A DNA stretch of 64,000 nucleotides from Candidatus Falkowbacteria bacterium (lineage in GTDB: Bacteria; Patescibacteriota; Patescibacteriia; UBA11705): positions 201,631 to 265,630 of the forward strand of contig DOZJ01000006.1 of the NCBI GenBank assembly GCA_003518055.1, written 5' to 3'. The first letter of the stretch is position 1, and each line of letters opens with the position of its first letter. The notes under the pieces are model-generated. The model worked only from the letters and a program-made list of their open reading frames with translations, ran no database searches and was not told the origin of the DNA. The position numbers and the translations under genes were made by a program. This document shows, in pieces, positions 3,910 to 60,568 of this stretch.

Positions 3910-5076
3910 ATGTCTTATAGACGATTGAAACAATCAAAATCATCAAAGGCGCGGCGAGGTCAGCTGACAACGCGACGCGGAGTATTGGAAACGCCGTTTT
4001 TTATGCCGATCGCGACCAAAGCAGCGGTTAAAAGTTTGACTTATGAAGATTTGCAAGCGCTCGAGGCGCAAATTGTGCTCAGCAATACATATCATTTGAT
4101 GCTCAAGCCGGGAAATTCATTGATAAAAAAAGTTGGAGGATTGCATCACTTTATGAATTGGGATAAACCGATTTTAACCGATAGCGGCGGTTTTCAGGTG
4201 TTTTCATTATCCAAAATCAGAAAGATTACCGAAGAAGGGGTTGAATTTCGGTCACACATTGATGGCAGCAAACACTTTATAAAACCGGAAGATTCAATTC
4301 AGATTCAGTTGGATTTGGGGTCGGATATTGTCATGGCTTTTGATGAATGTGTGGAATTGCCGGCGAAAAAAGAATATCTGGAGAAATCCGTGGAGTTGAC
4401 AACGAGATGGGCGAAGCGGTGTCAAGAGTATTTCGTTTCAAATTTACGAAAGGTTACGAATAATACGAAAACAAGACAGCCATTATTGTTTGGGATTGTG
4501 CAGGGAGGGTTGGATAAGGGGTTGCGCAAAAAAAGTGCTCAGGATTTGGTGAGTATTGGTTTCGACGGTTATGCGATTGGAGGCTTGTCCGTGGGAGAGT
4601 CGGAAAAAGAAATGTATAAAGTGTTGGATTATATCACTGATGAATTACCGGAAGATAAGCCCAGATACCTCATGGGTGTTGGCCGACCGGAAAACATCAT
4701 AAACGCGGTTAAAAGAGGTGTGGATATGTTTGATTGCGTGATTCCGACCAGAGAGGCGAGGCATGGGCGGCTCTACCTGTGGCGTGATGGGTTACGAAAT
4801 TACAAAAGGTTGCGAAAGGTTACAAAAACTAAACAGCTAAATATTTTAAATAATCCGAAGAGTTGTTATAAAACAATCAACATCACGTCGGAAAAGTATT
4901 CAAAGAAGTTTGAGCCGATAAACGCGGAATCGAAATTTCCGGTGTTGAGGAATTATACCAAAGCGTATTTGAGGCACTTGTTTTCTGTTAACGAACCTTT
5001 GGCCATCAGATTGGCGACTTTGAACAATTTGGAGTTTTATTTGGGATTGATGGAGAAAATTAGGCGGGCGATATAA
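3910..5076 (+). CDS. tgt: queuine tRNA-ribosyltransferase Tgt (divergent, zinc-site cysteines absent)
   Basis: TIM-barrel Tgt motifs are present (LTDSGGFQV, FDCVIPTR, GVGRPE). The region that normally carries CxCxxC is replaced by a lysine-rich insertion, and a second small insertion lies at 4441-4470. Confidence 0.85.
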   Translation: MSYRRLKQSKSSKARRGQLTTRRGVLETPFFMPIATKAAVKSLTYEDLQALEAQIVLSNTYHLMLKPGNSLIKKVGGLHHFMNWDKPILTDSGGFQVFSLSKIRKITEEGVEFRSHIDGSKHFIKPEDSIQIQLDLGSDIVMAFDECVELPAKKEYLEKSVELTTRWAKRCQEYFVSNLRKVTNNTKTRQPLLFGIVQGGLDKGLRKKSAQDLVSIGFDGYAIGGLSVGESEKEMYKVLDYITDELPEDKPRYLMGVGRPENIINAVKRGVDMFDCVIPTREARHGRLYLWRDGLRNYKRLRKVTKTKQLNILNNPKSCYKTINITSEKYSKKFEPINAESKFPVLRNYTKAYLRHLFSVNEPLAIRLATLNNLEFYLGLMEKIRRAI

Positions 5077-5143
5077 GGGGTGTTTGGAGAACAACGATTT
5101 TTGCGATGAAGGCGAATTTTGAAACAGGGTGGAGGTTTCTTCG

Positions 5144-5313
5144 TTTGACAGTTGACGGAGGCTGTCACGCCTGCCTGCCGGCAGGCAGGGCGCTACTTCG
5201 TACGCCTCGCAGCAAGAAAGAGAGGATTTTTTGCGAGGAAGGTACGACGAAGCAAACTACGATTGGCTGCTAATGGAGGCTGCTGCGTCGGTACTGCGTA
5301 CTCCTCGCAGCAA
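5144..5313. repeat. repeat family R1 (two units plus spacer; the first unit carries the R2 palindrome) upstream of the GIY-YIG gene
   Basis: Consensus unit TTGACAGCTAA(T/C)GGAGGCTGC(C/T)GCGTCGTTACTGCGTACTCCTCGCAGCAA. Units lie at 5144-5216 and 5265-5313, joined by the spacer TTTGCGAGGA(A)GGTACGACGAAGCAAACTACGA. Confidence 0.8.
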
Positions 5314-5326
5314 CAAACGTTTATCT

Positions 5327-5647
5327 ATGGGAGGGTTTGTATATATAATAACAAATAAATATAACACAGCTTTGTATGTAGGATCGGCAACTGATCTGCT
5401 GTTTAGAATTCAACAGCATAAGAACAAGGCATATAAGAGTTCATTTTCGGCTAGATATAATATTTCAAAATTGGTTTATTTTGAATGTTTTAATAGCAGA
5501 TATGAGGCATATCAACGAGAATATCAAATAAAGTCAGGATCAAGGGCTAAAAAGATTGCGTTAATAATAAAAGCGAATCCAGATTTTGATGATCTTTATG
5601 ATGATATTGTTTTAAATGGGATTGAAAAAAGTATATATAATAAATAG
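5327..5647 (+). CDS. GIY-YIG nuclease superfamily protein (YhbQ/UPF0213-like, ~106 aa)
   Basis: GFVYIITNKYNTALYVGSATDLLFRIQQH matches the GIY-YIG core of the short stand-alone family. The ATG at 5327 was chosen because the upstream part of the listed ORF is repeat sequence. Confidence 0.7.
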   Translation: MGGFVYIITNKYNTALYVGSATDLLFRIQQHKNKAYKSSFSARYNISKLVYFECFNSRYEAYQREYQIKSGSRAKKIALIIKANPDFDDLYDDIVLNGIEKSIYNK

Positions 5648-5686
5648 TGTAGCGTGAATTACGGAGCTGGTTGGAGACTGCTAAGA

Positions 5687-5922
5687 TTGACAGCTAATGG
5701 AGGCTGCTTCGTCGTAACTGGGTTGATGTGGAGTTCGAAACCGGGTGGAGCTGCTACATCTGTCAGCTAACGGAGGCTGCCACGGCGTTACTGCGTACGC
5801 CTCGCAGCAAAAGAAAGAGATGATATTTGCGAGGAGGTACGACGAAGCAAACTACGAACAAGCTGCCGTGTTTGCCTACTGATGGAGGCTGCTTCGTCGT
5901 TACTACGTACTCCTCGCAGCAA
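5687..5922. repeat. repeat family R1 (three units plus spacer) downstream of the GIY-YIG gene
   Basis: Units at 5687-5720 (truncated), 5758-5810 and 5876-5922. The same spacer as upstream lies at 5826-5857. Confidence 0.8.
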
Positions 5923-5948
5923 TAAAAAGGGGTTATGTTCAAAATAAT

Positions 5949-7089: not shown

Positions 7090-7563
7090 ATGAAGATTAC
7101 TATTTGTTTGAGCATTTTATTCTATCCGGAGATGTTGGCGATAAAAGAAGCGCTTGAAAATTCTGGTCATGAAGTTTTGGTGCCGCCGAGCGAAGTGGCG
7201 GATGGCGAGGGAAAAATGATTCCGGTGGCTGAATATTACAAATTGCGGCACGCGGATGAAGTGGGTGAAGATTGGGTTTGGGAAAGAAAAAAAGAAGCCA
7301 TGAGATGGCATTTTGACAAGGTGGCGGCGGCGAACGCGGTGTTGATTTTGAATTTTGATAAACATGGCATAAAAAATTATATAGGCGCGAATACTTTACT
7401 TGAGATGGGGCTGGCGTTTCATTTGGGTAAACCGATATATTTGTGGAATCCGATACCGGAGGGAATGAGCTATTTGGAAGAAATTAAGGGGATGATGCCG
7501 GTGGTGATAAATAATGATTTAAGTAAAATAATCCTCCGCCAAAGGACGCCTGCCTGCCGGTAG
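7090..7563 (+). CDS. nucleoside 2-deoxyribosyltransferase-like protein (putative); 3' end supplied by the R2 palindromic element
   Basis: 157 aa. The central LILNFDKHG...GANTLLEMGLAFHLGKPIYLW resembles the Rossmann-like deoxyribosyltransferase/DUF4406 fold. The last 9 codons and the stop lie inside repeat R2. Confidence 0.4.
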   Translation: MKITICLSILFYPEMLAIKEALENSGHEVLVPPSEVADGEGKMIPVAEYYKLRHADEVGEDWVWERKKEAMRWHFDKVAAANAVLILNFDKHGIKNYIGANTLLEMGLAFHLGKPIYLWNPIPEGMSYLEEIKGMMPVVINNDLSKIILRQRTPACR

Positions 7564-7577
7564 GCAGGGACGCGTCC
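7544..7577. repeat. repeat family R2: palindrome GGACGCCTGCCTGCCGGTAGGCAGGGACGCGTCC
   Basis: Near-perfect 34-bp inverted repeat. The same core CCTGCCTGCCGG(C/T)AGGCAGG also occurs at 5170-5189, 20367-20399 and 43374-43416. Confidence 0.85.
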
Positions 7578-7726
7578 TCCGGCGCGGAATAGAAAGCGGC
7601 AATCCGAATAATCCGAATGAGAAATTTGAGTTTTGCGTTAATCAGATAAAATTACACTAGTTGACAAAGAAGCATATATAAGGTAATTTAAGGGAAGTAG
7701 CAACCACAACCTCAGGGAGGTGGCCG

Positions 7727-8940: not shown

Positions 8941-8997
8941 TTATCGTGAGGTGGTTGGTGGAGGCTCATTCATCTGTCGGTTAATGAGGCTGCCGCG

Positions 8998-9048
8998 CTT
9001 GACAGCTAATGGAGGCTGTCGCGTCGTTACTGCGTACTCCTCGCAGCG
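8998..9048. repeat. repeat family R1, solo unit (a degenerate partial unit lies at 8951-8997)
   Basis: CTTGACAGCTAATGGAGGCTGTCGCGTCGTTACTGCGTACTCCTCGCAGCGA. Confidence 0.8.
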
Positions 9049-9124
9049 AGGGAAAGGGATGATTTTTACATAGTTTTTATTTTGGTATATAATATGGATG
9101 TAAAAGATAAATAATTGGAAATTT

Positions 9125-16609: not shown

Positions 16610-16654
16610 GTCATCGATAGATAATTCGGAATGGAATCGGTAGATGTTGCTTCG

Positions 16655-16706
16655 TTTGACAGCTAACGGAGGCTGCCGCGTCGTTACTGCGTACTCCTCG
16701 CAGCAA
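16655..16706. repeat. repeat family R1, solo unit between ftsI and murF
   Basis: TTTGACAGCTAACGGAGGCTGCCGCGTCGTTACTGCGTACTCCTCGCAGCAA. Confidence 0.8.
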
Positions 16707-16774
16707 TAAAAGTTTAATGTCGGGAGTTGAAATTCTTGTGAAATTGATATATAATGAATATTATTCATTGAAAA

Positions 16775-18497: not shown

Positions 18498-18572
18498 GCC
18501 TCCATCGTCTAGCGGTTAGGACATCGCCTTCTCACGGCGGAAACCGGGGTTCGATTCCCCGTGGAGGTACCA
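18498..18572 (+). tRNA. tRNA-Glu (anticodon CUC)
   Basis: 75-nt cloverleaf with acceptor GCCTCCA/TGGAGGT, a CTC anticodon in the loop cTTCTCAc, a GGTTCGATTCC T-arm and an encoded CCA end. Preceded by a TTGACG-N17-TAGAAT promoter at ~18446-18475. Confidence 0.85.
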
Positions 18573-20357: not shown

Positions 20358-20409
20358 TCCGCCAAAGGACGCCTGCCTGCCGGTAGGCAGGGATGCGCCT
20401 CTGGCGCAG
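20358..20409. repeat. repeat family R2 (extended copy, identical in its outer arms to the 7533-7588 copy)
   Basis: ATCCGCCAAAGGACGCCTGCCTGCCGGTAGGCAGGGATGCGCCTCTGGCGCAG. Confidence 0.85.
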
Positions 20410-20543
20410 AAATTACTAGGCAGGTAAAAATATAAGCCGCTTCGGGGAAGCGGTTTTTGGTTTATCCACAGGTGGGTTTTGACGTTCGGTTTTTGTTTGG
20501 GTATAGTGGAGGTAGGCGAACAAGAAGCGAACAGAAGAAAGAT

Positions 20544-20584
20544 AATTGAGAGATTAAGAGAATTAAGAGATTGAGAGAGTGAGT
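20544..20584. repeat. R3 left inverted repeat flanking the four-helix-bundle gene
   Basis: AATTGAGAGATTAAGAGAATTAAGAGATTGAGAGAGTGAG, the reverse complement of the right-hand repeat at 20977-21015. Confidence 0.75.
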
Positions 20585-20609: not shown

Positions 20610-20981
20610 ATGCCTACTTCATATCGAGAATTAAGAATTTGGAAGAAAGGATACGATCTTCTTTTGGAGGTTTATGAAATAACGAGTCATTATCCAAATG
20701 GTGAAAAATTTGGCTTGGTTTCTGATACTAGACGTTCGGCTAATTCGATTATCGCCAATATTGCGGAAAGCCATGGGCGTTATTACTTTCTGGATAAAAT
20801 TAGGGTTTTATATATTGCTAGGGGTGAAGTTGAGGAAGTGAGAAGTCATTTAGAAGTGGCTTTTGGGGTGAATTATTTAACACAAGAAGTTTATAAAAAA
20901 TTAGATTTAGAGTATCAAGGTTTATTAATTGGTTTAAATGAATACATAAACAGCATTTTTAAAGAAAAAAATAAAACTTAA
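20610..20981 (+). CDS. four-helix-bundle protein (23S rRNA intervening-sequence protein / Avd-like family)
   Basis: 123 aa. YRELRIWKKGYDLLLEVYEITSHYP...GLVSDTRRSANSIIANIAESHGR matches the PF05635/TIGR02436 signature. Confidence 0.8.
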   Translation: MPTSYRELRIWKKGYDLLLEVYEITSHYPNGEKFGLVSDTRRSANSIIANIAESHGRYYFLDKIRVLYIARGEVEEVRSHLEVAFGVNYLTQEVYKKLDLEYQGLLIGLNEYINSIFKEKNKT

Positions 20982-21015
20982 TTCTCTTAATCTCTTTTTA
21001 TTCACTTAATTCTCT
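20977..21015. repeat. R3 right inverted repeat flanking the four-helix-bundle gene
   Basis: CTTAATTCTCTTAATCTCTTTTTATTCACTTAATTCTCT. Confidence 0.75.
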
Positions 21016-25897: not shown

Positions 25898-26764
25898 TTA
25901 TTTTTCGAGTTGTTTCTTGGTTCTCATCAAGTGATCACGAAGTTTTTCTAGAGCGGATCTCTGTTCCGGATCACTGGCAGACGAGGTTGGGGGCAGGGTA
26001 ATGTCGGTTACTTCATTCGGGTAGCGAAGCCGCATGGCGACTTGGGTGTCGATTGGCTTAAGTGGAATATTCAGTTGTGGGTGGCGTCCGGGCTGCATGA
26101 ATAATTCGAAATCGCCGTTCGCGTGTTCATAATACCAGAATAGCGGCTGGCCATCCGGAGTGAAGAGTCTCAGATTTGGGTTTAGCTCTACGGTTTCGAT
26201 GGTAATTGGCGGCCGGCTAACCATTTCTTTGGATCGGTTCAGGCTTTTGATTTCAGCTGGGTCGCGAATGACAGGATTACCGGTTTGGGGATCAATTTCC
26301 CACTCGCATGGGACTTCGACATAACTGTCAAGGCGAGCGCTGAAGCATTTTTTCGGTTCTCCGGTTTCGGGATCAAAGAGCAGATTAGCGTCAGCGTAAT
26401 ACATGAAACCGCAAAAGGCCAAATAGGCGGAGCTGCCCAGAATGATGCCAATCAGACGTTTACGTCGGCGGAAAGAAAGTATCATGCCTACGCTGATCAC
26501 GAACAGAATGGCTGGCAGAATGGCGATCATTTTGGCCAGCCATGGATTAAGTGCGGCATGAAGTTCCAAATATTCGGAGATCCACGGAAATACCAAGAAA
26601 AAGGCAATTAGACTGCCGAATTTAAACAGGCTGAATAGCATCAATAGTCCAAAGACAAATAAAATAATACCCCAAATGAGTTTTTTTCGGCTGCGTTTGA
26701 TCTTTGGTGGTTCATCTCGGTTGGATTCGGATTTGATTTCACCAAATGGCTGTGTCATGATCAT
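25898..26764 (-). CDS. membrane protein, family M (cytoplasmic N-terminus, TM helices, extracytoplasmic C-domain)
   Basis: 288 aa, paralogous to the disrupted copy at 34676-35466 (same LIWGxILxxFGLLMLFSLFKFGS and VPCxWEIDPQTGNPVI blocks). Confidence 0.6.
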   Translation of the reverse strand: MIMTQPFGEIKSESNRDEPPKIKRSRKKLIWGIILFVFGLLMLFSLFKFGSLIAFFLVFPWISEYLELHAALNPWLAKMIAILPAILFVISVGMILSFRRRKRLIGIILGSSAYLAFCGFMYYADANLLFDPETGEPKKCFSARLDSYVEVPCEWEIDPQTGNPVIRDPAEIKSLNRSKEMVSRPPITIETVELNPNLRLFTPDGQPLFWYYEHANGDFELFMQPGRHPQLNIPLKPIDTQVAMRLRYPNEVTDITLPPTSSASDPEQRSALEKLRDHLMRTKKQLEK

Positions 26765-26779
26765 CTCCTTGCTGGTGGT

Positions 26780-27175
26780 TTGGAAACGAACAGGTTATGT
26801 ATCATTGTGTGGTTTATGGCGCAATTTGTCAAGTCGCTTTTGACAAGAAGGGTCATTTTTGGTAGGTTAAGGGCAAGGAATCATAGTTTAATCGAGACCT
26901 CAAAATTGAGGGAAAGGGAGGCTCAGATGCTGAGAGTATTGCTCATTGTAGCAGTGGTGGTCTTGATCGCCATCATCTTGGCCGGTGTCGCGTTGATCAG
27001 GGATTATTGGCGGCCGTTGAAGGATAGCAATGGCCAGCCGGTTGAACTTGATTCAAAGCAAAAGTCAAGATTGAAAATTATGATGGGCGCGGCGGCGATC
27101 GCGTTGTTCACGATTTTTCTTTCATCCAAGCATAATTGGGTGAAAAAAATGAAGCGGTCAATGGGCCGAGCGTAA
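26780..27175 (+). CDS. small membrane protein, hypothetical
   Basis: 131 aa with 2 TM helices and a terminator at 27185-27208. Confidence 0.35.
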   Translation: METNRLCIIVWFMAQFVKSLLTRRVIFGRLRARNHSLIETSKLREREAQMLRVLLIVAVVVLIAIILAGVALIRDYWRPLKDSNGQPVELDSKQKSRLKIMMGAAAIALFTIFLSSKHNWVKKMKRSMGRA

Positions 27176-27217
27176 TTATTGTCCAGCAAACTAACAGTTT
27201 GCTTTTTTGATTAAAAA

Positions 27218-27240
27218 AAACTAACAGGTGCTGTTAGTTG
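27218..27240 (-). terminator. terminator family AACTAACA-N-TGTTAGTT (copy for L1)
   Basis: AACTAACAGgtgCTGTTAGTT followed by a T-run on the minus strand. Related hairpins lie at 28542-28567, 30580-30603 and 35545-35568. Confidence 0.6.
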
Positions 27241-27253
27241 TTGTTTTATTCGG

Positions 27254-28465
27254 TCATCGCTTGAAAGGAACCAATGGTAATGCATGAGTCGGACAATGTT
27301 CGGTGGCGCAGTTTCCTTTGAAATCCACATCAGAAATAATAGTTTGGTAGTCACATCTGATGTTTGGGCAAAAACAGTATTTTTTTTGATTTTCTTCTTT
27401 CCATGCTTTCCATTCTGCGACCGATGCAGCCGCTTTTTCTTCTTCTTGGCGTTTTTTTTCTGCCGCCACCTTTATAAACAGTACTGCTAGTTCCAATTGG
27501 CGTATAAATTGTTCTTTGGCTACTCTTTGTCTTTCTAATTCTGCTTCACGCCTTTTTTCATCTTCGATCTGTTTCAAACGTTCAAATTCGATTTGCCGTT
27601 GTCGTTCTTGTTCGATTTGTTTCTGTTTGGCCAGTTCTATTTCATGGAGTTGTGTTTCCGCTTTCTTTTTTTCCAATATACGTAACCTACGGGATTTTTG
27701 GCGGCGTTGTTCGAGTAATTCAGCCCTTTTCTGTTTCTCAAGTTCTTTCTTTTGTTTTAATTCTTCTTCCTGTTTAGATTTAAGCAACTTCTCTTGTACT
27801 TTTTTCTTTTCTTCTGCAAAGATGTATTGATCATAAATTTCATCAAGTTCTTTGAGGTCTGCCTCTTTGGGAGGCGGCAAAATCAGCTTTTGAGTTCGGG
27901 GTTGATATTGGGTTATGACCAGATCCAAACGATCAAGTAGTCGGTCAATTTCCGCGTCTTCCATGCTGTCGAGAAGAATAATGTCTAAATCAAGCTGCTT
28001 TTCCACCCCGACCAGTTCAATTTCACCGGCTTCGGTTTTTTGTGCCGCTTCGATCACGATTTGTTTATATCCATGGGCTTTTTGTATCGCTTCAAGACAA
28101 TTTCTAATCCGCTGATTTTTAATACTTTCATCAAACCCCTGTTGACCAGTATAGCTTTTTTCCTCTTGAATTTCTTTGACGTTTCTTTGAATTTCTGATT
28201 CAAATTTGACGACTGTGCCGCGTAGCGTTTGGGCTTTGGCCGCCAGTTCGGCTTTTAGAGCTTTGACTGTTTGAAGTTTTTCTTCTGAGAGCTGCTTTTT
28301 ACTTTTGGCGTCATGTTGTTGAATATCTTTTGTAGTTTTGTGTACGCCAATTTGTTTCCGATTTGGATTTTTGTTCGGGCTTTCTGATTGTTGATGAGAG
28401 CAGGAAGCAATTATCAGCCATAGAACAGCAATGATTGTAATGCCAAGGTATTGACGGTGGAGCAT
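27254..28465 (-). CDS. lipoprotein L1 of a paralogous family (conserved N-domain, KE/QR-rich coiled coil, Cys-rich C-terminus)
   Basis: 403 aa with an IIASC lipobox. Shares the N-terminal ~200-aa domain (…CLEAIQ…LDLVITxYQP…) with 28562-30505, 30603-32915 and 35568-37634. Its C-terminal CxCPN…HCPTHALPL is shared with L3. Confidence 0.65.
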   Translation of the reverse strand: MLHRQYLGITIIAVLWLIIASCSHQQSESPNKNPNRKQIGVHKTTKDIQQHDAKSKKQLSEEKLQTVKALKAELAAKAQTLRGTVVKFESEIQRNVKEIQEEKSYTGQQGFDESIKNQRIRNCLEAIQKAHGYKQIVIEAAQKTEAGEIELVGVEKQLDLDIILLDSMEDAEIDRLLDRLDLVITQYQPRTQKLILPPPKEADLKELDEIYDQYIFAEEKKKVQEKLLKSKQEEELKQKKELEKQKRAELLEQRRQKSRRLRILEKKKAETQLHEIELAKQKQIEQERQRQIEFERLKQIEDEKRREAELERQRVAKEQFIRQLELAVLFIKVAAEKKRQEEEKAAASVAEWKAWKEENQKKYCFCPNIRCDYQTIISDVDFKGNCATEHCPTHALPLVPFKR

Positions 28466-28541
28466 GGTTCCTCCTTGGGTGTAGTTGTAAATGAACTTTT
28501 CATGATATTTTATATCAAAACTTCTAATTTGTCAATGAAAA

Positions 28542-28567
28542 AACTAACATCGGGTTAAATGTTAGTT
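28542..28567 (-). terminator. terminator family AACTAACA-N-TGTTAGTT (copy for L2; contains the stop codon)
   Basis: AACTAACATcgggttaaATGTTAGTT. On the minus strand it is followed by TTTTTTCATTGACAA, which runs directly into the promoter of L1. Confidence 0.6.
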
Positions 28568-30505
28568 GAGTTGCCGCATATCCCAAATGCAAAATCTCCA
28601 GCCGTCAGATCTCGCGAGAAGGTAACGGCCATCATGACTCCAGTCAAAGTTGGTTTGAATAAGAGGGCCGCCGCAAAGTAAGGCGGCAACAGTTTTTTGA
28701 GTTGAGTAATCTTTTACGTAGTATACGCCATGAGCTTTGGCCATGTTCGCGCTGAGAGCGGGATTTTCGGTGGTGGGATTGAGAAAATAGAGTGGATTGG
28801 TTGGCGACCAAAATTTGAGATCGACAGAATGTTCAGGCAAGGACATGGGTAAAGTTAATGGCGTTTGGGTGTTTTTTTCCGGATCCAAGACAATAATCTT
28901 ATCACCGTTGGCAATCAGTAATTGCTGGCCATGCCACCACATGTGAGTTTTCGCGGTAACAAGCGGTAGACGACTGAGGAGGCTGTTGGTAACCGTATTC
29001 CAGACAGACACTCTGAGGCCTGTTTGATCCTTGACCAGCGTGGCCAATCGATGGTTGGCGTAGTTTAAGCGAACGATTTGGACTTTATTGCATTCAGTGG
29101 CAAACAAAGTCGGATCCGAGGCGTCCGGACATTCATTGAGCTCAACCATGACGGTATTGGTCGTGAAATCAAGCAATCTGATTTTTCCTGATTCTCCGTA
29201 GTAAAAAGATTTTGAATCTTTATCGCATGAAGAATTGGCTCGAAATGAAATTGAAAGATTAGATGCAAATGCCTTACTGTAACCCAGTCTTGAATAACAA
29301 GAGTCAGGAGAAATGCATGATCCCTGATGAACAACATACCCATGGTCTGTCCAGCTGATTAATTTATTCCTGGCGTCAGCGCAGCTTACAGATTCATAAG
29401 CTGTGAAAATGGTTTCCCCAGATTCAATTGCCCAAATCCGAAATGTAGATCTGACTGTATCTGTAGCTGAACATGCCACCTGATCGATAATGGCCAGTCT
29501 TTGATCATCGGTTGACCAGACAACGTCAGTAAGATTTCCGATATAACGTTCTTGAAAAGAGGTGATTATATTTTCAGTGCCGGTTTCGTTAATCAGAATT
29601 TGTGTCGTTGAACTGCCATTGATTAATGCGATATACTTTCCAGAGTAAGAAAATCTGGCGAATCTAAAATGGCCGCCTAGCTGTTCGATGGTGATGTGGA
29701 AAGCCGGCCGAACGACCTTGATCCGCGACAGATCGGCTTGAACTCGTTTTTCTTGTTCGATTCTTCTTTGTTCCTCGAGCTCTTTTTGACGCTGTAAGGC
29801 GGTTTGTTGGTCTTGGAGGTCTTTTTGCCGTTGCAATTCCAATTGGCGTTGTTGGTCTTTGGCCGCTTCTTCCGGTCGAATATAATGGTCGTAGATTTCA
29901 GACAATGGTTTTAGGTCGGTTTTTTCATCGGTGAGGACCAACCTGTTGGAGTCGGGTTGGATGCGAGTGATGACCAAGTCAAGATCAGCCAGAATATTAT
30001 TGATTTCGTCTTCATCCAAGCTATTAAACATGATGGCGTCAAGTCTTAATTTTTTTTCCAAGGTACTGAGTTCAACGGTGCCCGCTTGGGTCAGATGGAT
30101 ATGTTTGTTCACAATTTGAATGTAGGCATTAGCTGTTTGGATCGCTTCGAGACAACCTCGGATTTTTTCATCCTTGATCGCTTGATCAAAACCAATCAAA
30201 CCGGTTCGGCTTTTCTCCGTCTTAATTTCGATAACATTAGCGTTGATTTCAGCATCAATTTGGGTCAGGGTAGCGGCAAGGGTGGTTTCTTTTTGTTGAA
30301 GCACGGATTTGAGCGTTTGAACTTCTTGTAGTTTTTCCGTGGTTAATTCTTGCTTGCTTTTTGTCGCTTTAGCCGCGGGGACAATTTTGACACTTTCGGT
30401 TGGCTTCATTTCGTCGGAATGGTTGGGGTTGGAATTACAGGCGAGGCCGGTCATGATGATTAAAATTCCAAACGCTAGCGTCTCAAAGAAATTTGATGAT
30501 TTCAT
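28562..30505 (-). CDS. lipoprotein L2 (conserved N-domain, coiled coil, PD40/TolB-like beta-propeller repeats)
   Basis: 647 aa with a signal peptide and a Cys at ~22. The N-domain is homologous to L1, L3 and L4. C-terminal repeats of the WSTDDQRLAIID / WSHDGRYLLARSDG type match PD40/WD40-like blades. Confidence 0.65.
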   Translation of the reverse strand: MKSSNFFETLAFGILIIMTGLACNSNPNHSDEMKPTESVKIVPAAKATKSKQELTTEKLQEVQTLKSVLQQKETTLAATLTQIDAEINANVIEIKTEKSRTGLIGFDQAIKDEKIRGCLEAIQTANAYIQIVNKHIHLTQAGTVELSTLEKKLRLDAIMFNSLDEDEINNILADLDLVITRIQPDSNRLVLTDEKTDLKPLSEIYDHYIRPEEAAKDQQRQLELQRQKDLQDQQTALQRQKELEEQRRIEQEKRVQADLSRIKVVRPAFHITIEQLGGHFRFARFSYSGKYIALINGSSTTQILINETGTENIITSFQERYIGNLTDVVWSTDDQRLAIIDQVACSATDTVRSTFRIWAIESGETIFTAYESVSCADARNKLISWTDHGYVVHQGSCISPDSCYSRLGYSKAFASNLSISFRANSSCDKDSKSFYYGESGKIRLLDFTTNTVMVELNECPDASDPTLFATECNKVQIVRLNYANHRLATLVKDQTGLRVSVWNTVTNSLLSRLPLVTAKTHMWWHGQQLLIANGDKIIVLDPEKNTQTPLTLPMSLPEHSVDLKFWSPTNPLYFLNPTTENPALSANMAKAHGVYYVKDYSTQKTVAALLCGGPLIQTNFDWSHDGRYLLARSDGWRFCIWDMRQLN

Positions 30506-30579
30506 GGGTGGTCTCCTGTTTGGTTGTCAAGGGTCATTCAATTAAAGCTACCTCTAATCGCACTCTTTGTCAATGAAAA

Positions 30580-30603
30580 AACTAACATTGGTTGATGTTA
30601 GTT
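30580..30603 (-). terminator. terminator family AACTAACA-N-TGTTAGTT (copy for L3)
   Basis: AACTAACATtggttgATGTTAGTT plus a T-run on the minus strand. Confidence 0.6.
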
Positions 30604-32915
30604 TAGTAAACCATGATTGTTAGAGGAAGGTGATGCTTGGGGCATTTTTTTCTAGAGCACGGAAGAGTTCTCGAGGCATCTCTTGCGAAATCACAACTCT
30701 CATTCGGACAAGTGCAATAATCCCTGTTGTTTGGGTCATCAGGCTCCATTTCACTGTAGTTATTTTCATAATCATCTTTTGTATAACTTTTTTTTGCGTA
30801 TTTCAGGTATTCAGAATATTGTTTTTCATTAAGAAGTGGGATTCCATGCTCTAAACAAGTTTGTTTTGAACACGTATCGAACTTTTTAATATACACAGTG
30901 GTAGCTTCAATTGGACAATAACAGTGAGAACCTTCGGGAATTTTAACTTCTACATATCGTGGTGATGATAATTGAGGATCGACTGGAGTAACTTCTAGGG
31001 GCGGGGTGGTCGGTGCGGTTTCAATTTCAACTTCGGGTTCTTTTGGTTTTTGGGGTGGTGGTGTGAAAGGTGGTGAGTATGGTGGTGAGTAAGTCACATT
31101 CCACAAACAATAATTCCATCCGTTAGTTAATCCGATGATGTGTTTCCCATCTGGACTCCACGATATTTCCCCAGCAATTCTTTGATTGCAGAGTAGAGCG
31201 GCGATGGTGCTTTCTGATTCTATGTCTTTAATATAGTACTTCCCATAAGCCGCCGCTATTTTTTTCGCTAGACCAGTGACTTCTGTCGTCGGACTTAGAA
31301 ATACATAGGGATCTCGAGGCGACCAAGAAATATCGGCGGTAACAAAGAAGCTGGTTTTTTTTAATTCCCATTTTTGGGAGCCCAGTTTGTAGATCTCGCC
31401 ACCGGTGACAATTACAAGAGCATCGCCCCACCACCAGAATTGGGTGTCGGGAACGAGTTTAATCATGGAGTTGATCTTTTCTTTGGTCGTGGTGTCCCAG
31501 ACTGATAGTCTGTATCCTTTTTTGTCTTGAACAAAGGTTACAAGGCGATCGCGTTCATATAGCATCTGGAGCACAACGACTGAACTGCATTCTGTTTTAA
31601 ACAGATTTGGATCTGATTTATCAGGACATTCATTAACTTCAACGGTTTCTTGGCCGGTGTTTAAGTCATACAACTTTACTTTTCCGTCTTTACTATAATA
31701 AAAAGAATGATCATCTTTCCAAAACGTGGAAGAAGCTCGGAATGAATGTTTGCCGATTCTTTCTCCAGTATCGCTAAGAATGTTCACATGACAATTGTAA
31801 CCAGCACTATCTCCATAAATTACAATGTTTATTTTATTCCAACCAAGAAGCTGGGGAGTACAACCGGAATAGTCAAGCGAAACGTTAACGGAAGTATAAT
31901 CACGTTGATCCACCGACCAAACTCTAAATGTTTGATCTACACAATTTCCTGATAATACGGCGATGGTTTTGTCATCCGGAGACCAAGCGACATCATATAA
32001 GGCGTGAAGTTTATGAGCCCTTTCTGCTGGCACAGGGATAGGGATTTCGGTTGTTTCGGGTGGATCTTTGCTAAAATCTTCAATATAGAGTTTTCTTTGG
32101 TCATTACTTGTACCATATAGTAAGACTAGTGGTTTTGAGTGTGCCCATAGAACACGAGTCACTGCAGCATCCGCACCTTGAATCGTTTTGTATAAAGTGG
32201 GTTCAATTATCGGCATTTCTTGAAGTTGTTGCTTGGATTCTTCTTGGTGTTCAAGTTCTACTTGTCTTTGTCGCTCTTTTCCTCGTTCTTCTCGCCCAAT
32301 ATATTGTTCATAAATATCAGGCAGTGGCTGGCGGTCAATATCTTCCTCGGTAACGATTGATTCCACAGCATTTGGGCCTACGCGATCGATAACTAGATTT
32401 AGATCGGTGATGAGATCATCGAGTTTGGCTTCTTCCAGCCCTTCGAGATAGATAACGCCAAGTTCAGTTTGTTTCTCTTCTCCTTTTAAGTCTACTAACC
32501 CAGCTTCGGTGATTTGGGCGTGTTTGGTATAAGATTGTTTGTAGGCGTGGGCTGTCTGTATGGCTTCAAGGCAGTGACTAATAGAGACTTGTTGCATGGA
32601 CTGTTCAAAGCCGGTAATGCCGGCGCGGCTTTGTTCAGTTTTGATTTCAGCTACGTTAGCGGTGATTTTCGCATCAAACTTAGCAAGTGTGGTTTGTAAA
32701 ACGGTTTTTTTCTGTTGCAGTGCAACGGAGAGATCTTTTATTGCCTGTAGTTTTTCTTGATACAAGAGAACTTTGCTTTTTTTATCAATGGGTTTCGGAG
32801 TGTAGCGAATTACTACTTCATCCGGAGGCGGAGGTACCGGAGTTTCAGTCTTGTTGCAGGCGGCAAAAATCATGATGGTAGCTAGGAAAAAACAAAAGAT
32901 GGGTTTAGATCTCAT
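30603..32915 (-). CDS. lipoprotein L3 (conserved N-domain, beta-propeller, Pro-rich linker, Cys-rich C-terminus)
   Basis: 770 aa with an IFAAC lipobox. PD40-like WSPDDKTIAVLSG / WSPDGKHIIGLTNG blades, a PPYSPPFTPPPQKPKEPE linker, and a C-terminal CxC…HHLPL module related to the L1 C-terminus. Confidence 0.65.
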   Translation of the reverse strand: MRSKPIFCFFLATIMIFAACNKTETPVPPPPDEVVIRYTPKPIDKKSKVLLYQEKLQAIKDLSVALQQKKTVLQTTLAKFDAKITANVAEIKTEQSRAGITGFEQSMQQVSISHCLEAIQTAHAYKQSYTKHAQITEAGLVDLKGEEKQTELGVIYLEGLEEAKLDDLITDLNLVIDRVGPNAVESIVTEEDIDRQPLPDIYEQYIGREERGKERQRQVELEHQEESKQQLQEMPIIEPTLYKTIQGADAAVTRVLWAHSKPLVLLYGTSNDQRKLYIEDFSKDPPETTEIPIPVPAERAHKLHALYDVAWSPDDKTIAVLSGNCVDQTFRVWSVDQRDYTSVNVSLDYSGCTPQLLGWNKINIVIYGDSAGYNCHVNILSDTGERIGKHSFRASSTFWKDDHSFYYSKDGKVKLYDLNTGQETVEVNECPDKSDPNLFKTECSSVVVLQMLYERDRLVTFVQDKKGYRLSVWDTTTKEKINSMIKLVPDTQFWWWGDALVIVTGGEIYKLGSQKWELKKTSFFVTADISWSPRDPYVFLSPTTEVTGLAKKIAAAYGKYYIKDIESESTIAALLCNQRIAGEISWSPDGKHIIGLTNGWNYCLWNVTYSPPYSPPFTPPPQKPKEPEVEIETAPTTPPLEVTPVDPQLSSPRYVEVKIPEGSHCYCPIEATTVYIKKFDTCSKQTCLEHGIPLLNEKQYSEYLKYAKKSYTKDDYENNYSEMEPDDPNNRDYCTCPNESCDFARDASRTLPCSRKKCPKHHLPLTIMVY

Positions 32916-33198
32916 GGATTTTCTCCTGTTGGGGTTGTCAAAGGGCTTTCAATTAAGGGTAGTGGTTATGGGGTGTTTTGTCAATCAAAAAACAGGTTTC
33001 TTTGTTGGTTGAAGTAATTAATTATAAATACATAATATTGATCTAAAAATTTGTTTATATGGTTGACGGAAAAATAAGTTTGTGTTAATGTATTCTGTCA
33101 AACATAAACGGAGGGTGCGTGAGAGCGAATTTTGTTTTTGCGTTTGAAATTGTCCGGGTAAAAACCAATCAACTTCAAATTCAACCAAGGAGGGCAGC

Positions 33199-33684
33199 AT
33201 GAGGCTGATGGTTAAATTTCAGCAGGCGGTTGGATGTGAGGCGGCTCAGCAGATTCTGGCGCCGTTTATGGCTCGGTTGGCTTTGATTGAGTCAAAGACG
33301 TATCAACTATTGATGTTTAATGAAGTCTCAGTGGAAGAATTGCTACGAATGTTTTTTTCTCAGATGAAGCAGTCAGAATCAAAGGTGCATTTTTTCCCCA
33401 GTTCAAAAAGTGTTATTCTGTCGGCCAAGAATCAGGCTCCTGATGTGGTGGTTACCACGATTATTAGCGAATTGACTGAGCAGCAGCTGCTTTTGCTTAA
33501 AGTTGTTTATGATTTGTACCAGTTGAATCAAGATGAAAAGGTTTTTCTCGTTTTTGTTAACGCCTTGAGCGATTTTTGGCGAGCCAAAGGAGATGGCGGT
33601 TTTTATCAGATGATTGGGGTGGATGCGGATGATGTGTGGCGCTTTTGGCAGGAATTTAGAGACCGGCAAATGCGAATGAGGTAA
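33199..33684 (+). CDS. hypothetical protein (161 aa)
   Basis: AAGGAGG RBS, a TTGACG promoter-like element upstream, and a terminator at 33755-33778. Confidence 0.4.
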   Translation: MRLMVKFQQAVGCEAAQQILAPFMARLALIESKTYQLLMFNEVSVEELLRMFFSQMKQSESKVHFFPSSKSVILSAKNQAPDVVVTTIISELTEQQLLLLKVVYDLYQLNQDEKVFLVFVNALSDFWRAKGDGGFYQMIGVDADDVWRFWQEFRDRQMRMR

Positions 33685-33893
33685 AGAATTTATGGTGGAA
33701 AAAAATAATGAAAGTATCAGTCAATTGAGTTGGTTTGAATTGATAATAATCCGTAAGAGCTAAACAAGCTCTTTTTTGGTGGGAAAAAAGTGCGAGATAA
33801 AAATTGAAAGAAGTATCAACTGGTAATAAAACGTGCTTGACAAAAATAACGCTTATTGATAGTATAAACACATAATATTCATTTGAAACTTAT

Positions 33894-34010
33894 ATGCATA
33901 AAATTAGACCGAGTGAACGCGCAAGCAAATTTCTCAATCCGGTAAAGAAGGACAAAAAGTCCAAAAAGGCGAAAATCAGGGACCGGAAGAAAAAGACTAA
34001 AATGCGATAA
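33894..34010 (+). CDS. possible small lysine-rich peptide (38 aa), or an untranslated short transcript
   Basis: A TTGACA-N17-TAGTAT promoter at ~33837-33866 and a terminator CAGCTGaaaaGCTG plus T8 at 34019-34040 bracket a ~170-nt unit. No SD in front of the ATG, so translation is uncertain. Confidence 0.2.
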   Translation: MHKIRPSERASKFLNPVKKDKKSKKAKIRDRKKKTKMR

Positions 34011-34159
34011 AAAAAATTCAGCTGAAAAGCTGTTTTTTTGTTTTTAGCCAAAAATTTCAGGCTTTCAACTGATGCGAGGTACTGTTTATGGTTTATGCCC
34101 AACGGTTTTTACAAAAAGGAAAAAATTTTGTATAATTTATCCATAATATATTAAAGATT

Positions 34160-34633
34160 ATGACTATACTTTTTAAGGAGAGGCAGCTGATGCAGCCGAT
34201 TTTTACGGTTGTTAATCTCGGGGTCATCGGGTTCCTGTTGTATTCCATTTTAGTTTACAATGAACAGTACAGTCGAGGTTCGTTGATTTTTTTGGCGGCC
34301 GCGCTATGCGTCTTATCGTTTACCATGATTAATTTCGCGGTCTTAAACATTAGAGTGACGGAAACAGCGTTGGATTTTGGTTTTGGATTATTCAAACGAT
34401 CATTTTTTATCAAAAATTTGGTCGAGGTGGAAATCCAGAAATACGAATTTCGTCGTTTTGGCGGTTATGGTATCCGAAAATCATTAACCGGCGAAACCGG
34501 TTTTGTCGCTCGCGGCGGAAGCGGAGTATATTTTCGCGATACTAATTCCGGAAAAAAAGTCTATCTCAGCAGCGATAAACCGGAAGAATTGTATACCAAA
34601 TTGATTGAAAATGGTGCGATGGAAAAAAGGTAG
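34160..34633 (+). CDS. membrane protein with a putative bacterial PH-like (bPH/YdbT-like) domain
   Basis: 157 aa with two N-terminal TM helices then a ~90-aa soluble domain. Assignment is by architecture only. Confidence 0.3.
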   Translation: MTILFKERQLMQPIFTVVNLGVIGFLLYSILVYNEQYSRGSLIFLAAALCVLSFTMINFAVLNIRVTETALDFGFGLFKRSFFIKNLVEVEIQKYEFRRFGGYGIRKSLTGETGFVARGGSGVYFRDTNSGKKVYLSSDKPEELYTKLIENGAMEKR

Positions 34634-34675
34634 TCTTTATATAAAAAGTAAAAGACCGCATTGTTATGCTGTTTT

Positions 34676-35466: not shown

Positions 35467-35544
35467 GATCAGCTCCTCGCCGGAGGTTTGGAAATGAACA
35501 GGTTATATATCGTTGTACATTGTTTTGTGTCTAATGTCAACAAA

Positions 35545-35568
35545 AAACTAACATCTTTGGTGTTAGTT
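35545..35568 (-). terminator. terminator family AACTAACA-N-TGTTAGTT (copy for L4)
   Basis: AACTAACATctttggtGTTAGTT hairpin plus a T-run on the minus strand. Confidence 0.55.
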
Positions 35569-43319: not shown

Positions 43320-43373
43320 ATAATCAATGTGGATCGAGTTCGATAAATCGACGTCGAGATAATTTAATTTTGT

Positions 43374-43416
43374 CATGCTGAGCCTGCCTGCCGGTAGGCA
43401 GGGCCCTCGAAGCATG
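43374..43416. repeat. repeat family R2 (43-bp palindrome CATGCTGAGCCTGCCTGCCGGTAGGCAGGGCCCTCGAAGCATG)
   Basis: Same core as the other R2 copies, sitting between eno and gpmI. It is followed at 43436-43462 by a second hairpin GTCACCCttcaagagcctcaGGGTGAC. Confidence 0.85.
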
Positions 43417-43470
43417 GCAACTCAATTTTATGACCGTCACCCTTCAAGAGCCTCAGGGTGACAGAATGCT

Positions 43471-60531: not shown

Positions 60532-60568
60532 TTTTGTAAGGTTTTGTATTGTTTTGTAATTTTGTAAC
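60532..60568 (-). repeat. R4 inverted copy downstream of the GxxExxY gene
   Basis: TTTTGTAAGGTTTTGTATTGTTTTGTAATTTTGTAAC, the reverse complement of GTTACAAAATTACAAAACAATACAAAACCTTACAAAA. Confidence 0.7.

What the first reader, a model, noticed from the sequence alone, without database searches (positions are those of the whole stretch)
7533..7588. R2: perfect 20-bp palindrome CCTGCCTGCCGG(C/T)AGGCAGG in four copies, one of which supplies the last codons and stop of a gene
Copies lie at 5166-5192 (inside an R1 unit), 7544-7577, 20367-20399 and 43374-43416. All are intergenic or at the 3' end of genes. Two copies share longer identical arms (TCCGCCAAAGGACGCC…). In the 7090-7563 gene the element provides …ILRQRTPACR-stop, which indicates insertion into the 3' end of the coding sequence. 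This is REP/BIME-like behaviour (terminator, mRNA stabiliser or recombination site) in a small genome where such elements are not expected to be abundant.
Basis: seen in the sequence. Interest (0 to 1): 0.5.

Follow-up and report, generated by a model that had tools for sequence, protein, structure and literature searches.

The report
Tiny 20-base palindrome inserted across bacteria
The repeated palindrome is a discrete 20-base piece of DNA that has been inserted, letter for letter the same, into hairpins, tRNA gene fragments and even essential protein genes of bacteria from many phyla and of their viruses, which makes it look like an unusually small and widespread piece of selfish DNA that no paper in the searchable library describes.

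Summary
CCTGCCTGCCGG(C/T)AGGCAGG occurs four times in the window (none expected), and one copy supplies the last codons and the TAG stop of ORF 7090-7563.

The interpretation needs revision, because R2 has two layers. The outer arms belong to older hairpin families that also exist without the core. The 20-mer is a separate insertion. Each of the four copies has a core-less comparator that differs by a gap of exactly 20 nt, with no target duplication.

The 20-mer is not specific to this genome. Exact copies lie in at least 120 contigs from many bacterial phyla, including cultured Bacteroidota, and in 47 viral contigs. Three composition-matched control palindromes gave 0 hits.

It also sits in frame, as (G)LPAGRQ, inside TrpRS, ribosomal protein S6, FtsK and RfbB. 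It is found in loops of tRNA gene fragments and nested inside itself. The C13→T variant is a propagated sub-lineage with its own flank signature.

When a small GIY-YIG nuclease gene is present in a locus, it is usually within 150 nt of a core.

Best reading: an ultra-small palindromic insertion element mobilised in trans. The mobilising enzyme is unknown; an Ssn-like ssDNA nuclease is the leading candidate. It is not a canonical terminator and not a lineage-specific REP.

The parts
5170..5189 (.). Core copy 1, the perfect palindrome CCTGCCTGCCGGCAGGCAGG, inserted in an R1 unit 137 nt upstream of a GIY-YIG gene
   Evidence: Alignment A3 shows a gap of exactly 20 columns in the six other R1 units.
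5128..5224 (+). R1 repeat unit that hosts core copy 1. Other R1 units start at 5250, 5670, 5743, 5859, 8982 and 16639.
   Evidence: (families D2-D6).
5327..5647 (+). Small single-domain GIY-YIG nuclease gene (106 aa), flanked by two R1 units upstream and three downstream. This is the same layout as Ssn-type nuclease genes.
   Evidence: Pfam PF01541, E 3e-15. R1 positions. Layout compared with PMC11893778.
7549..7568 (+). Core copy 2 (T13 variant). It supplies codons P-A-C-R and the TAG stop of ORF 7090-7563.
7532..7588 (+). Composite hairpin of copy 2: host hairpin ..CCGCCAAAGGACG / GACG / CGTCCTCCGGCGCGG.. with the core at the 5' edge of its tetraloop
   Evidence: RNA fold -38.2 kcal/mol, z -5.4. 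The same sequence without the core is in metagenome contig L212.
7090..7563 (+). ORF (157 aa; some sources name homologues nucleoside 2-deoxyribosyltransferase) whose last 9-10 residues and stop codon come from the composite repeat (7531-7563)
20372..20391 (+). Core copy 3 (T13 variant)
   Evidence: Reproduced in independent assemblies of several samples.
20360..20406 (+). Composite hairpin of copy 3, from the same host hairpin family as copy 2
   Evidence: Fold -31.9 kcal/mol, z -4.0. Core-less equivalents in L225, L253 and L181.
20434..20456 (+). Ordinary hairpin-plus-T-run terminator 40 nt after copy 3. It is not part of the element; it shows that termination here does not need R2.
43383..43402 (+). 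Core copy 4 (T13 variant) in the enolase-to-iPGM spacer
   Evidence: The orthologous spacer of L176/L178 lacks exactly these 20 nt (alignment A2).
43370..43420 (+). Host hairpin of copy 4 (TTGTCATGCTGAG ... CTCGAAGCATGGCA), which resembles Ssn-related GTCAT hairpins and is present without the core in relatives
   Evidence: Fold -28.4 kcal/mol, z -3.5..

Best explanation
The core of R2 is a discrete 20-bp palindromic insertion element. It encodes nothing, and the same unit has been copied into many unrelated sites in bacteria of many phyla and in their viruses.

Shown:
- It enters DNA as a unit of exactly 20 nt (21 nt where a reading frame must be kept), without target-site duplication.
- It has a weak flank preference: a purine before it and G or T after it.
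- In this window it entered the loop, or the loop edge, of pre-existing hairpin repeats in copies 2, 3 and 4, and an R1 repeat next to a GIY-YIG gene in copy 1.
- Copies 2 and 3 are two copies of one already-filled composite hairpin.
- It exists as at least two propagated sub-lineages, the perfect form and T13.

Inferred:
- The element is mobilised in trans by an enzyme that recognises the hairpin or cruciform and cuts at its base. This would probably act on single-stranded DNA, and host repair or ligation would complete the insertion.
- The best candidate is a small Ssn-like GIY-YIG single-strand DNA nuclease, because such genes lie next to cores far more often than chance allows.

Local consequences look incidental. 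The insertion adds an 8-bp GC stem to hairpins downstream of genes. In one case, together with its host hairpin, it replaces the C-terminal residues and the stop codon of a gene.
For: Over-representation: 4 copies against 0 expected in the window. 47 viral contigs against 0, 0 and 0 for three composition-matched palindromes.

Clean filled/empty pairs:
- The enolase-iPGM spacer of L176/L178 lacks exactly the 20 nt.
- Six R1 units lack exactly the 20 nt.
- The arms of copies 2 and 3 occur joined without the core in 74 metagenome contigs, with at least 20 distinct full hairpins.
- The tRNA-Lys 5' fragment in L052 differs from the intact tRNA 260 nt away by exactly the 20-mer.
- TrpRS of L094 has a gap of exactly 7 residues opposite GLPAGRQ when aligned with PDB 2a4m.

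In-frame copies lie in FtsK, ribosomal protein S6, RfbB, a histidine kinase and others, always in the LPAGRQ frame. Nested copies occur, with a core inside the CCGG loop of another core, and copies lie in tRNA D, anticodon and variable loops.

Sub-lineage: at positions 13 and 17 only C13 and T13 occur in viral contigs. T13 copies have flanks of purine before and G/T after in 89% of cases, which differs from perfect copies.

The sequence is real. The same locus appears in independent JGI, ENA and Logan assemblies, and the core is present in cultured isolates.

GIY-YIG link: of 10 GIY-YIG ORFs found in 1.34 Mb of loci, 8 lie within 150 nt of a core, although only about 4% of that sequence is so close. 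Ssn nucleases are small GIY-YIG proteins that bind hairpin repeats flanking their genes and cut single-stranded DNA (PMC11893778).
Against: - No mobilising enzyme has been identified. The window holds no transposase, RAYT or integrase among 69 ORFs scanned, and no transposase-like family is enriched near cores.
- Most cores (about 95%) have no GIY-YIG gene nearby. The adjacent GIY-YIG proteins fall into two subfamilies that are only 20-50% identical. GIY-YIG genes and cores may simply both accumulate in the same non-essential DNA.
- GIY-YIG nucleases cut but do not join DNA.
- Loop targeting is clear in the window but weak overall: 16.9% of reconstructed empty sites place the junction in a hairpin loop, against 12.4% for other positions (p 0.05).
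- About 6% of cores have 7-nt direct-repeat flanks, which this model does not explain.
- No presence/absence polymorphism within a single population was found, so recent activity is not shown.
Confidence: 0.7

Rival explanations
1. R2 is a lineage-specific REP/BIME-type repeat of this Patescibacteria genome. It would be spread by a REP-associated tyrosine transposase and serve as a terminator, mRNA 3'-end stabiliser or recombination site.
For: It consists of extragenic, repeated, GC-rich imperfect palindromes at the 3' ends of genes. The long hairpins are stable (z -3.5 to -5.4). Copies 2 and 3 are a duplicated composite of about 60 nt.
Against: The identical core is present in many phyla and in viruses, whereas REPIN-RAYT systems are described as lineage-specific and vertically inherited (10.1101/2022.05.22.493013). 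No T run follows any copy, and ordinary terminators are present. The core lies inside coding sequences and tRNA fragments elsewhere. Orientation shows no bias relative to genes. No Y1 transposase is present in the window.
Confidence: 0.08
2. The 20-mer is itself an Ssn-related motif: the cognate recognition hairpin of one subfamily of small GIY-YIG single-strand DNA nucleases. It would be kept because the nuclease-hairpin pair has a cellular role, for example restricting incoming single-stranded DNA, as proposed for NTS/SsnA in Neisseria.
For: GIY-YIG genes lie within 150 nt of cores in 8 loci. The window gene is flanked by repeats like ssnA. Ssn-related motifs are 20-50 nt hairpins found across phyla (PMC11893778).
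Against: The core does not fit the published degenerate motif HGTCWY..., and the window has no match to that motif at all. Ssn-related motifs have a conserved directional 5' flank, while the core has only a one-base flank preference. NTS repeats are reported to be rarely inside genes (2%), whereas cores sit in frame in essential genes. Identity of all 20 bases across phyla is not expected from co-evolving nuclease-motif pairs with diverse specificities.
Confidence: 0.15
3. The 20-mer is a leftover or a by-product rather than an element: either the two 10-bp terminal inverted repeats of a larger transposon left after excision, or a sequence generated repeatedly by slippage of CCTG repeats plus fold-back synthesis.
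For: The sequence is (CCTG)2CC followed by its reverse complement, so it has low complexity. A 21-nt tandem array exists in viral contig L165. About 6% of cores have 7-nt direct-repeat flanks.
Against: Half-sites never flank a long interior; every stray half-site is part of a degenerate full palindrome. Empty-site comparisons show no target duplication. The boundaries are exact in about 180 copies. A single-base variant with its own flank signature is propagated. Composition-matched palindromes are absent.
Confidence: 0.05
4. The 20-mer is a technical artefact, for example an adapter or hairpin oligonucleotide, or an assembly error at palindromes.
For: It is a perfect palindrome found mostly in metagenome-assembled genomes from many laboratories. 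Logan unitigs break inside it.
Against: It interrupts otherwise colinear sequence by exactly 20 or 21 nt. Reading frames are kept, always as LPAGRQ. It is present in cultured isolates and in a curated complete genome. The same site was recovered by three assembly pipelines from different samples. Degenerate and nested copies exist. It matches no adapter known to me (own knowledge).
Confidence: 0.02

Closest known systems
Ssn-related motifs (NTS/dRS3 hairpin repeats) with Ssn GIY-YIG single-strand DNA nucleases (Chenal et al. 2025, PMC11893778)
   Same: Both are short hairpin repeats present in many phyla, clustered around and flanking small single-domain GIY-YIG genes. The repeat-gene-repeat layout is seen at window 5128-5940. 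The host hairpin of copy 4 begins with GTCAT, like NTS.
   Different: The core lacks the GTCWY 5' flank and fails the published motif. It is identical across phyla rather than co-diverging with its nuclease. It inserts inside other hairpins, inside coding sequences and inside itself. No nuclease activity on it has been tested.
REP / REPIN elements mobilised by RAYT tyrosine transposases (PMC3116915, PMC3337134)
   Same: Both are non-coding palindromic repeats of 20-40 nt, mostly extragenic, thought to move through single-stranded hairpin intermediates without target duplication.
   Different: REP families are specific to a lineage and tied to a single-copy RAYT gene. The mobile unit is a REP doublet. 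They are not reported in frame inside essential genes. No RAYT is seen here.
Rickettsia palindromic elements (own knowledge of Ogata et al. 2000; mentioned in PMC1779305 and PMC10969869)
   Same: Both are palindromic selfish repeats that insert in frame into protein-coding genes, including conserved ones, and add a tolerated peptide segment.
   Different: Rickettsia palindromic elements are about 100-150 bp and confined to Rickettsia. The present unit is 20-21 nt (7 residues) and is spread over many phyla and viral contigs.
Prokaryotic MITEs (review PMC10969869) and mobile GC clusters of yeast mitochondria (own knowledge)
   Same: Both are non-autonomous, structured, GC-rich short insertions that depend on functions supplied in trans.
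   Different: MITEs have terminal inverted repeats around an interior, create target duplications and derive from a recognisable IS. The core is nothing but a 2 x 10 nt palindrome, makes no duplication and has no parent element.
Intrinsic (Rho-independent) terminators
   Same: Both are GC-rich hairpins downstream of genes.
   Different: No T run follows any of the four copies. Bona fide terminators with T runs are present nearby. The core also occurs in coding DNA and upstream of genes.

Membership tests
REP/BIME (REPIN-RAYT) | The repeat family is specific to a species or genus and inherited vertically | tested here: not met
   The identical 20-mer is in at least 120 contigs of many phyla and in 47 viral contigs.
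REP/BIME (REPIN-RAYT) | A cognate RAYT (Y1/HUH transposase) gene is present in the genome, usually flanked by REPs | tested here: inconclusive
   None among 69 ORFs of the 64-kb window. The rest of the genome is not visible.
REP/BIME (REPIN-RAYT) | Extragenic location; imperfect palindrome of 20-40 nt | tested here: met
   All four window copies are intergenic or at a 3' end. However, copies elsewhere lie inside genes.
Ssn-related motif (SRM/NTS) | Matches HGTCWYN(0-2)YYVSBRHN(0-5)WNVSBRGN(0-2)RNCYNB | tested here: not met
   0 matches in the window on either strand. The core has no GTCWY flank.
Ssn-related motif (SRM/NTS) | Found flanking genes for small single-domain GIY-YIG (cd10448) proteins | tested here: met
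   8 of 10 GIY-YIG ORFs in the loci lie within 150 nt of a core. The window gene 5327-5647 has a core 137 nt upstream. Assignment to cd10448 itself was not tested.
Ssn-related motif (SRM/NTS) | Bound as single-stranded DNA and cut nearby by the cognate Ssn nuclease | not testable with these tools
   This needs purified protein and oligonucleotides.
MITE | Terminal inverted repeats around an interior, a target-site duplication, and a related autonomous IS | tested here: not met
   No interior and no duplication in five filled/empty comparisons. No half-sites flank long DNA.
Rickettsia-palindromic-element-like in-frame selfish repeats | Insertion into protein-coding genes with the reading frame preserved | tested here: met
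   TrpRS shows a 7-residue gap opposite GLPAGRQ. S6, FtsK, RfbB, a histidine kinase and two membrane proteins also carry it.
Rickettsia-palindromic-element-like in-frame selfish repeats | Sequence homology to RPE families; about 100-150 bp; Rickettsia | tested here: not met
   The unit is 20-21 nt and occurs in unrelated taxa.
Intrinsic terminator | A GC-rich stem-loop directly followed by a T/U run | tested here: not met
   None of the four hairpins is listed by the terminator scan. Real terminator-like sites are listed nearby, for example 20434-20456.
Known structured RNA family (Rfam) | Reaches the gathering score of an Rfam model | tested here: not met
   Only tRNA-Glu at 18498-18569 was found in the window.

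The most novel reading that the evidence does not exclude
A previously unrecognised class of mobile DNA: a 20-nt palindrome that is the whole element. It would move between sites and, carried by viruses or other vectors, between bacterial phyla. It would use a widespread host- or cassette-encoded structure-specific single-strand DNA nuclease (Ssn-like GIY-YIG), and it would remodel hairpin repeats, tRNA gene remnants and even essential proteins by adding a GLPAGRQ loop.
Probability: 0.45. Interest if true: 0.9.

Novelty: new variant of a known kind. Interest (0 to 1): 0.8.

Why it matters
If this is right, it would be the smallest insertion element I know of in bacteria. It would also be a rare case of non-coding DNA that is identical in all 20 bases from Patescibacteria to Bacteroidota, Planctomycetota, Proteobacteria and phage contigs.

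It would give a concrete substrate for testing what the very common small GIY-YIG (Ssn-like) nucleases do in cells. It would explain stray C-terminal tails and 7-residue GLPAGRQ inserts in annotated proteins. It would provide a natural marker of DNA exchange between phyla.

In practice, it breaks k-mer assemblies and creates spurious ORF extensions such as the one in ORF 7090-7563.

Tried and rejected
- Rfam scan of the window: only a tRNA.
- Literature searches for the 20-mer, parts of it and its peptide readings: nothing. The supplement of the Ssn paper is not held.
- Looked for a transposon with these ends: stray half-sites are all parts of degenerate palindromes.
- Clustered all ORFs around 167 loci to find a shared enzyme. 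Apart from phage genes, only GIY-YIG (6-8 loci) and ParB (4-6 loci, probably coincidental) recur.
- Tested orientation of the T13 variant against neighbouring gene strand (18:12 and 12:11) and against GC skew (34:29): no bias.
- Tested whether flanks are generally complementary. Overall folding energy does not differ from shuffled partners, and only 7-10% have complementary flanks.
- Tested general loop preference: weak.
- A stop-free-frame test for frame-shifting insertions was too noisy in high-GC contigs to use.
- BLAST of a core dimer against PLSDB plasmids and INPHARED phages: only partial chance matches.
- Inspected ORFs in multi-copy loci: no candidate enzyme.
- L168, the nearest relative of ORF 7090-7563, is not a clean empty site because its downstream DNA is unrelated.

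Full report
**1. The observation.** The pattern CCTGCCTGCCGG(C/T)AGGCAGG occurs at window 5170-5189, 7549-7568, 20372-20391 and 43383-43402. Allowing up to 3 mismatches adds no copies, and dinucleotide-preserving shuffles give none. Only the first copy is a perfect palindrome. The other three have T at position 13, on the + strand. Copies 2 and 3 share longer arms, 92% identical over 49 nt. ORF 7090-7563 ends ...SKIILRQRTPACR-TAG, and the TAG exists only because of the T13 variant. The protein has 313 database homologues, nearly all 146-151 aa, which end 1-3 residues after the conserved ...KI and cover 94% of the query. The closest relative (98% identical) has identical DNA up to window 7530 and is unrelated afterwards.

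**2. R2 has two layers.** Folding shows the core at the tip of long imperfect hairpins for copies 2, 3 and 4 (-38, -32 and -28 kcal/mol; z -5.4, -4.0, -3.5). For every copy there is a comparator that lacks only the core.
- **Copy 4.** The orthologous enolase-to-iPGM spacer of related Patescibacteria contigs (enolase 81% identical, same gene order) aligns with a gap of exactly 20 columns: TTTGTCATGCTGAG[core]GCCCTCGAAGCATGGCA against TTTGTCATGTTGAGGCACTCGAAGCGTAAC.
- **Copy 1.** The six other R1 units of the window show a 20-column gap.
- **Copies 2 and 3.** The arms joined without the core (CCGCCAAAGGACGGAYGCG) are present in 74 metagenome contigs. At least 20 of these are distinct full hairpins ...CCGCCAAAGGACG-GAYG-CGTCCTnnGGCGCA.... 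L212 equals window copy 2 minus the core, and L225/L253 equal copy 3 minus the core.

The arms are thus older, independent hairpin families. The 20-mer went into their loop, or the 5' edge of the tetraloop, without any target duplication. Copies 2 and 3 are duplicates of one already-filled hairpin.

**3. The core is not a feature of this genome alone.** The record titles name the following groups:
- Patescibacteria of several classes, including Saccharibacteria and WWE3;
- Bacteroidota, including the cultured Winogradskyella echinorum, Olivibacter oleidegradans and Flagellimonas yonaguniensis;
- Ignavibacteriaceae, Omnitrophota, Planctomycetota, Nitrospirota and Chloroflexi;
- Gamma- and Deltaproteobacteria, and Bdellovibrionales.

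IMG/VR viral contigs hold 47 stretches, while three palindromes of the same composition gave 0 each. A uniform model predicts about one or two hits in 596 Gb (my arithmetic). Flanks are unrelated between loci. Plasmids in PLSDB and isolate phages in INPHARED hold no exact copy. That absence, together with the absence of the sequence and its peptide readings from the paper library, may explain why it has gone unnoticed.

**4. It behaves as an insertion.**
- **tRNA fragments.** In L052 a 5' fragment of tRNA-Lys reads GGTAGA[core]GCAGCGGC, while the intact tRNA 260 nt away reads GGTAGAGCAGCGGC. Similar fragments with cores in the D loop, anticodon loop or variable loop occur in L093, L162, L021, L044, L151 and L123.
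- **Nested copies.** Cores are nested inside other cores at C^CGG, which is inside the tetraloop, in L020, L026, L059 and L109.
- **Coding sequence.** Cores are depleted from open frames: 35% have a read-through frame, against 73% of random positions. Even so, several sit inside conserved proteins, always read as xC CTG CCT GCC GGC AGG CAG Gx, that is (G/N/A)LPAGRQ(G/V/A). The proteins are FtsK (L018), TrpRS (L094), ribosomal protein S6 (L068), RfbB (L032, a nested double of 42 nt), a histidine kinase (L097) and two membrane proteins. Aligned to Deinococcus TrpRS II, the L094 enzyme shows a gap of exactly seven residues opposite GLPAGRQ.
- **Frame.** Seven of seven internal copies use the one frame that reads the same on both strands (chance about 5e-4, my arithmetic).
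- **Reproducibility.** Copy 3 is recovered identically from JGI, ENA and Logan assemblies of different samples, and Logan unitigs end inside the palindrome. This excludes an artefact.

**5. Lineages and target.** Among 183 non-redundant copies, 120 are perfect and 63 carry T13. Opening positions 13 and 17 to any base returned the same 47 viral stretches, so no other base occurs there. T13 copies have G (76%) or A before the core and G (59%) or T (33%), never A, after it. Perfect copies most often have A...T. A variant with its own flank signature implies copying with inheritance, not random decay. It also implies an orientation-specific, weak target of purine^G/T. Other flank features are minor:
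- complementary flanks in 7-10% of copies, against 1-3% in controls;
- 7-nt direct repeats in 5.6%, against 1.9% local background;
- the junction of the reconstructed empty site in a hairpin loop in 16.9%, against 12.4% for other positions (p 0.05).

T13 shows no orientation bias relative to genes or to GC skew.

**6. What might move it.** The window has no transposase, RAYT or integrase among 69 ORFs scanned. Its genes are housekeeping, apart from one GIY-YIG gene, one four-helix-bundle (23S IVS) gene and a DNA methylase. Clustering all ORFs around the 167 loci found no shared transposase. The one recurrent neighbour is a small GIY-YIG protein. Ten such ORFs were found in 1.34 Mb, and eight lie within 150 nt of a core: the window, L012, L025, L052, L054, L089, L093 and L162. 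Only about 4% of the sequence is that close to a core. In L052, L093 and L162 the order is [tRNA 5' fragment with core] - GIY-YIG gene - intact tRNA.

Chenal et al. 2025 (PMC11893778) showed three things about small single-domain GIY-YIG proteins, which they named Ssn. They are site-specific single-strand DNA nucleases. Their genes are flanked by hairpin repeats in many phyla. The repeat-gene-repeat layout resembles an insertion sequence. The window gene 5327-5647, flanked by two plus three R1 units, has this layout. About seven cores elsewhere sit in loops of GTCAY-type hairpins like NTS.

However, the core fails the published motif, and the window has no strict match at all. Most cores have no GIY-YIG neighbour. 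The neighbouring proteins belong to two subfamilies. The enzyme assignment is therefore an inference, which I put at roughly 25%.

**7. What it does in the window.** None of the four hairpins is followed by a T run. The genome uses ordinary hairpin-plus-T-run terminators, one of them 40 nt after copy 3. No Rfam family matches. The most economical reading is that the copies are neutral or nearly neutral passengers. They lengthen pre-existing hairpins by an 8-bp GC stem. In one case, with the host hairpin, they replace the end of a gene. A stabilising effect on 3' ends is possible but untested.

**8. Comparison and verdict.** The element works like REP/REPIN, Ssn-related motifs and Rickettsia palindromic elements, but it fails a defining feature of each:
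- REP/REPIN: lineage specificity and a RAYT gene;
- Ssn-related motifs: the published SRM motif;
- Rickettsia palindromic elements: size and taxon;
- MITEs: terminal repeats with target duplication.

I file it as a new variant of the kind 'non-autonomous palindromic repeats'. It is unusual for its size (the palindrome is the whole element), for its identity across phyla, and for its presence in frame in essential genes. Confidence that the core is a discrete, horizontally widespread insertion unit is high (about 0.85). Confidence in the whole explanation, including trans-mobilisation through a hairpin intermediate, is 0.7. The identity of the enzyme remains open.

Noticed in passing
window 5128-5940, 8982-9067, 16639-16724: The R1 repeat family has 7 units, all in the same orientation: two upstream and three downstream of the GIY-YIG gene 5327-5647, plus two solo units. 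Read on the minus strand, R1 (TTGCTGCGAGGAGTACGCAGTAACGACG...CGAAGCAAC) resembles the widespread GTCATTGCGAGGAGCG...CGACGAAGCAATC hairpin with an extra internal segment of about 24 nt. It does not fit the published SRM motif.
   Followed up: partly
window 20549-20567 / 20977-20995, around gene 20610-20981: The four-helix-bundle (23S rRNA intervening-sequence / Avd-like) gene is bracketed by perfect 19-bp inverted repeats made of the oligo-repeat AGAGATTAAGAGAATTAAG. The same oligo-repeat recurs at 12387, 18706 and 18723. This looks like a small gene cassette with terminal inverted repeats. In L071 a core lies 7 nt upstream of a homologous gene.
   Followed up: partly
L181-L254 (metagenome contigs), e.g. 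L212, L220, L225, L253: The host hairpin of copies 2 and 3 (..TCTCCGCCAAAGGACG GAYG CGTCCTnnGGCGCAGAA..) is itself a widespread repeat family in very different metagenome contigs (GC 34-74%). It is often followed by short oligo-repeats such as TTGTCATTTTGATTTTTGATTTTTACATTTT. Its nature is unknown.
   Followed up: partly
L052 2100-2480; L093 1400-1832; L162 454-816; L044 3617-3787; L117 about 3028: A recurrent layout: a duplicated 5' fragment of a tRNA gene carrying one or two cores, then a small GIY-YIG gene (subfamily with ...KREKYLKSGxG...), then the intact tRNA. It suggests GIY-YIG cassettes that insert into tRNA genes and restore the 5' part. In L044 the fragment is present without the gene.
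   Followed up: partly
L165 3926-4135 (viral contig IMGVR_UViG_3300025106_000007): A tandem array of about ten 21-nt units, CCATGCCTACCGGCAGGCAGG, a variant of the core plus one base.
   Followed up: no
L151 2284 and L123 8616 (viral contigs): The core is inserted in the variable loop of a tRNA-Met-like gene (..CTCATACCCACGAGG[core]TCGCCGGTTCGAATCC..), at the position where class II tRNAs carry their long extra arm. The tRNA might remain functional.
   Followed up: no
window 7531 versus L168 1091: A 98% identical copy of ORF 7090-7563 in another sample loses all similarity exactly where the composite repeat begins, and a different gene follows it. The repeat therefore marks a rearrangement breakpoint.
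   Followed up: partly
window 43435-43462: A second hairpin (GTCACCCT...AGGGTGAC) lies in the enolase-iPGM spacer and is conserved, with changes, in L176/L178. Two iPGM paralogues follow in tandem (43471-45045 and 45091-46668) in both genomes.
   Followed up: no
window 25898-37634, minus strand: A cluster of large paralogous genes (403-770 aa; weak WD40/beta-propeller hits) has internal repeats. A 300-nt segment is duplicated at 26471-26770 and 35179-35478 (79% identical).
   Followed up: no
window 1-64000: GC skew is positive in every 2-kb bin (0.07 to 0.32), with no switch. The lowest values are in the minus-strand gene block at 26-38 kb.
   Followed up: no
window 4797-4833, 60051-60137, 60532-60568: Oligo-repeats of the type AAAGGTTACAAAAGGTTACAAAA occur in spacers, once in inverted orientation. 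Similar short tandem oligo-repeats flank cores in many Bacteroidota, Planctomycetota and Omnitrophota loci.
   Followed up: no
L003 2496, L069 7455-8000, L093 1-1176, L152 1417-3444: ParB/Spo0J-like genes lie directly next to a core in four loci. In L069 the core supplies the C-terminal residues ...KACLPAGREV of ParB.
   Followed up: no
L171 and L172, position 1 (Logan contigs): Logan unitigs begin in the middle of the palindrome (GGCAGGGATGCG...), so this element fragments k-mer assemblies.
   Followed up: yes
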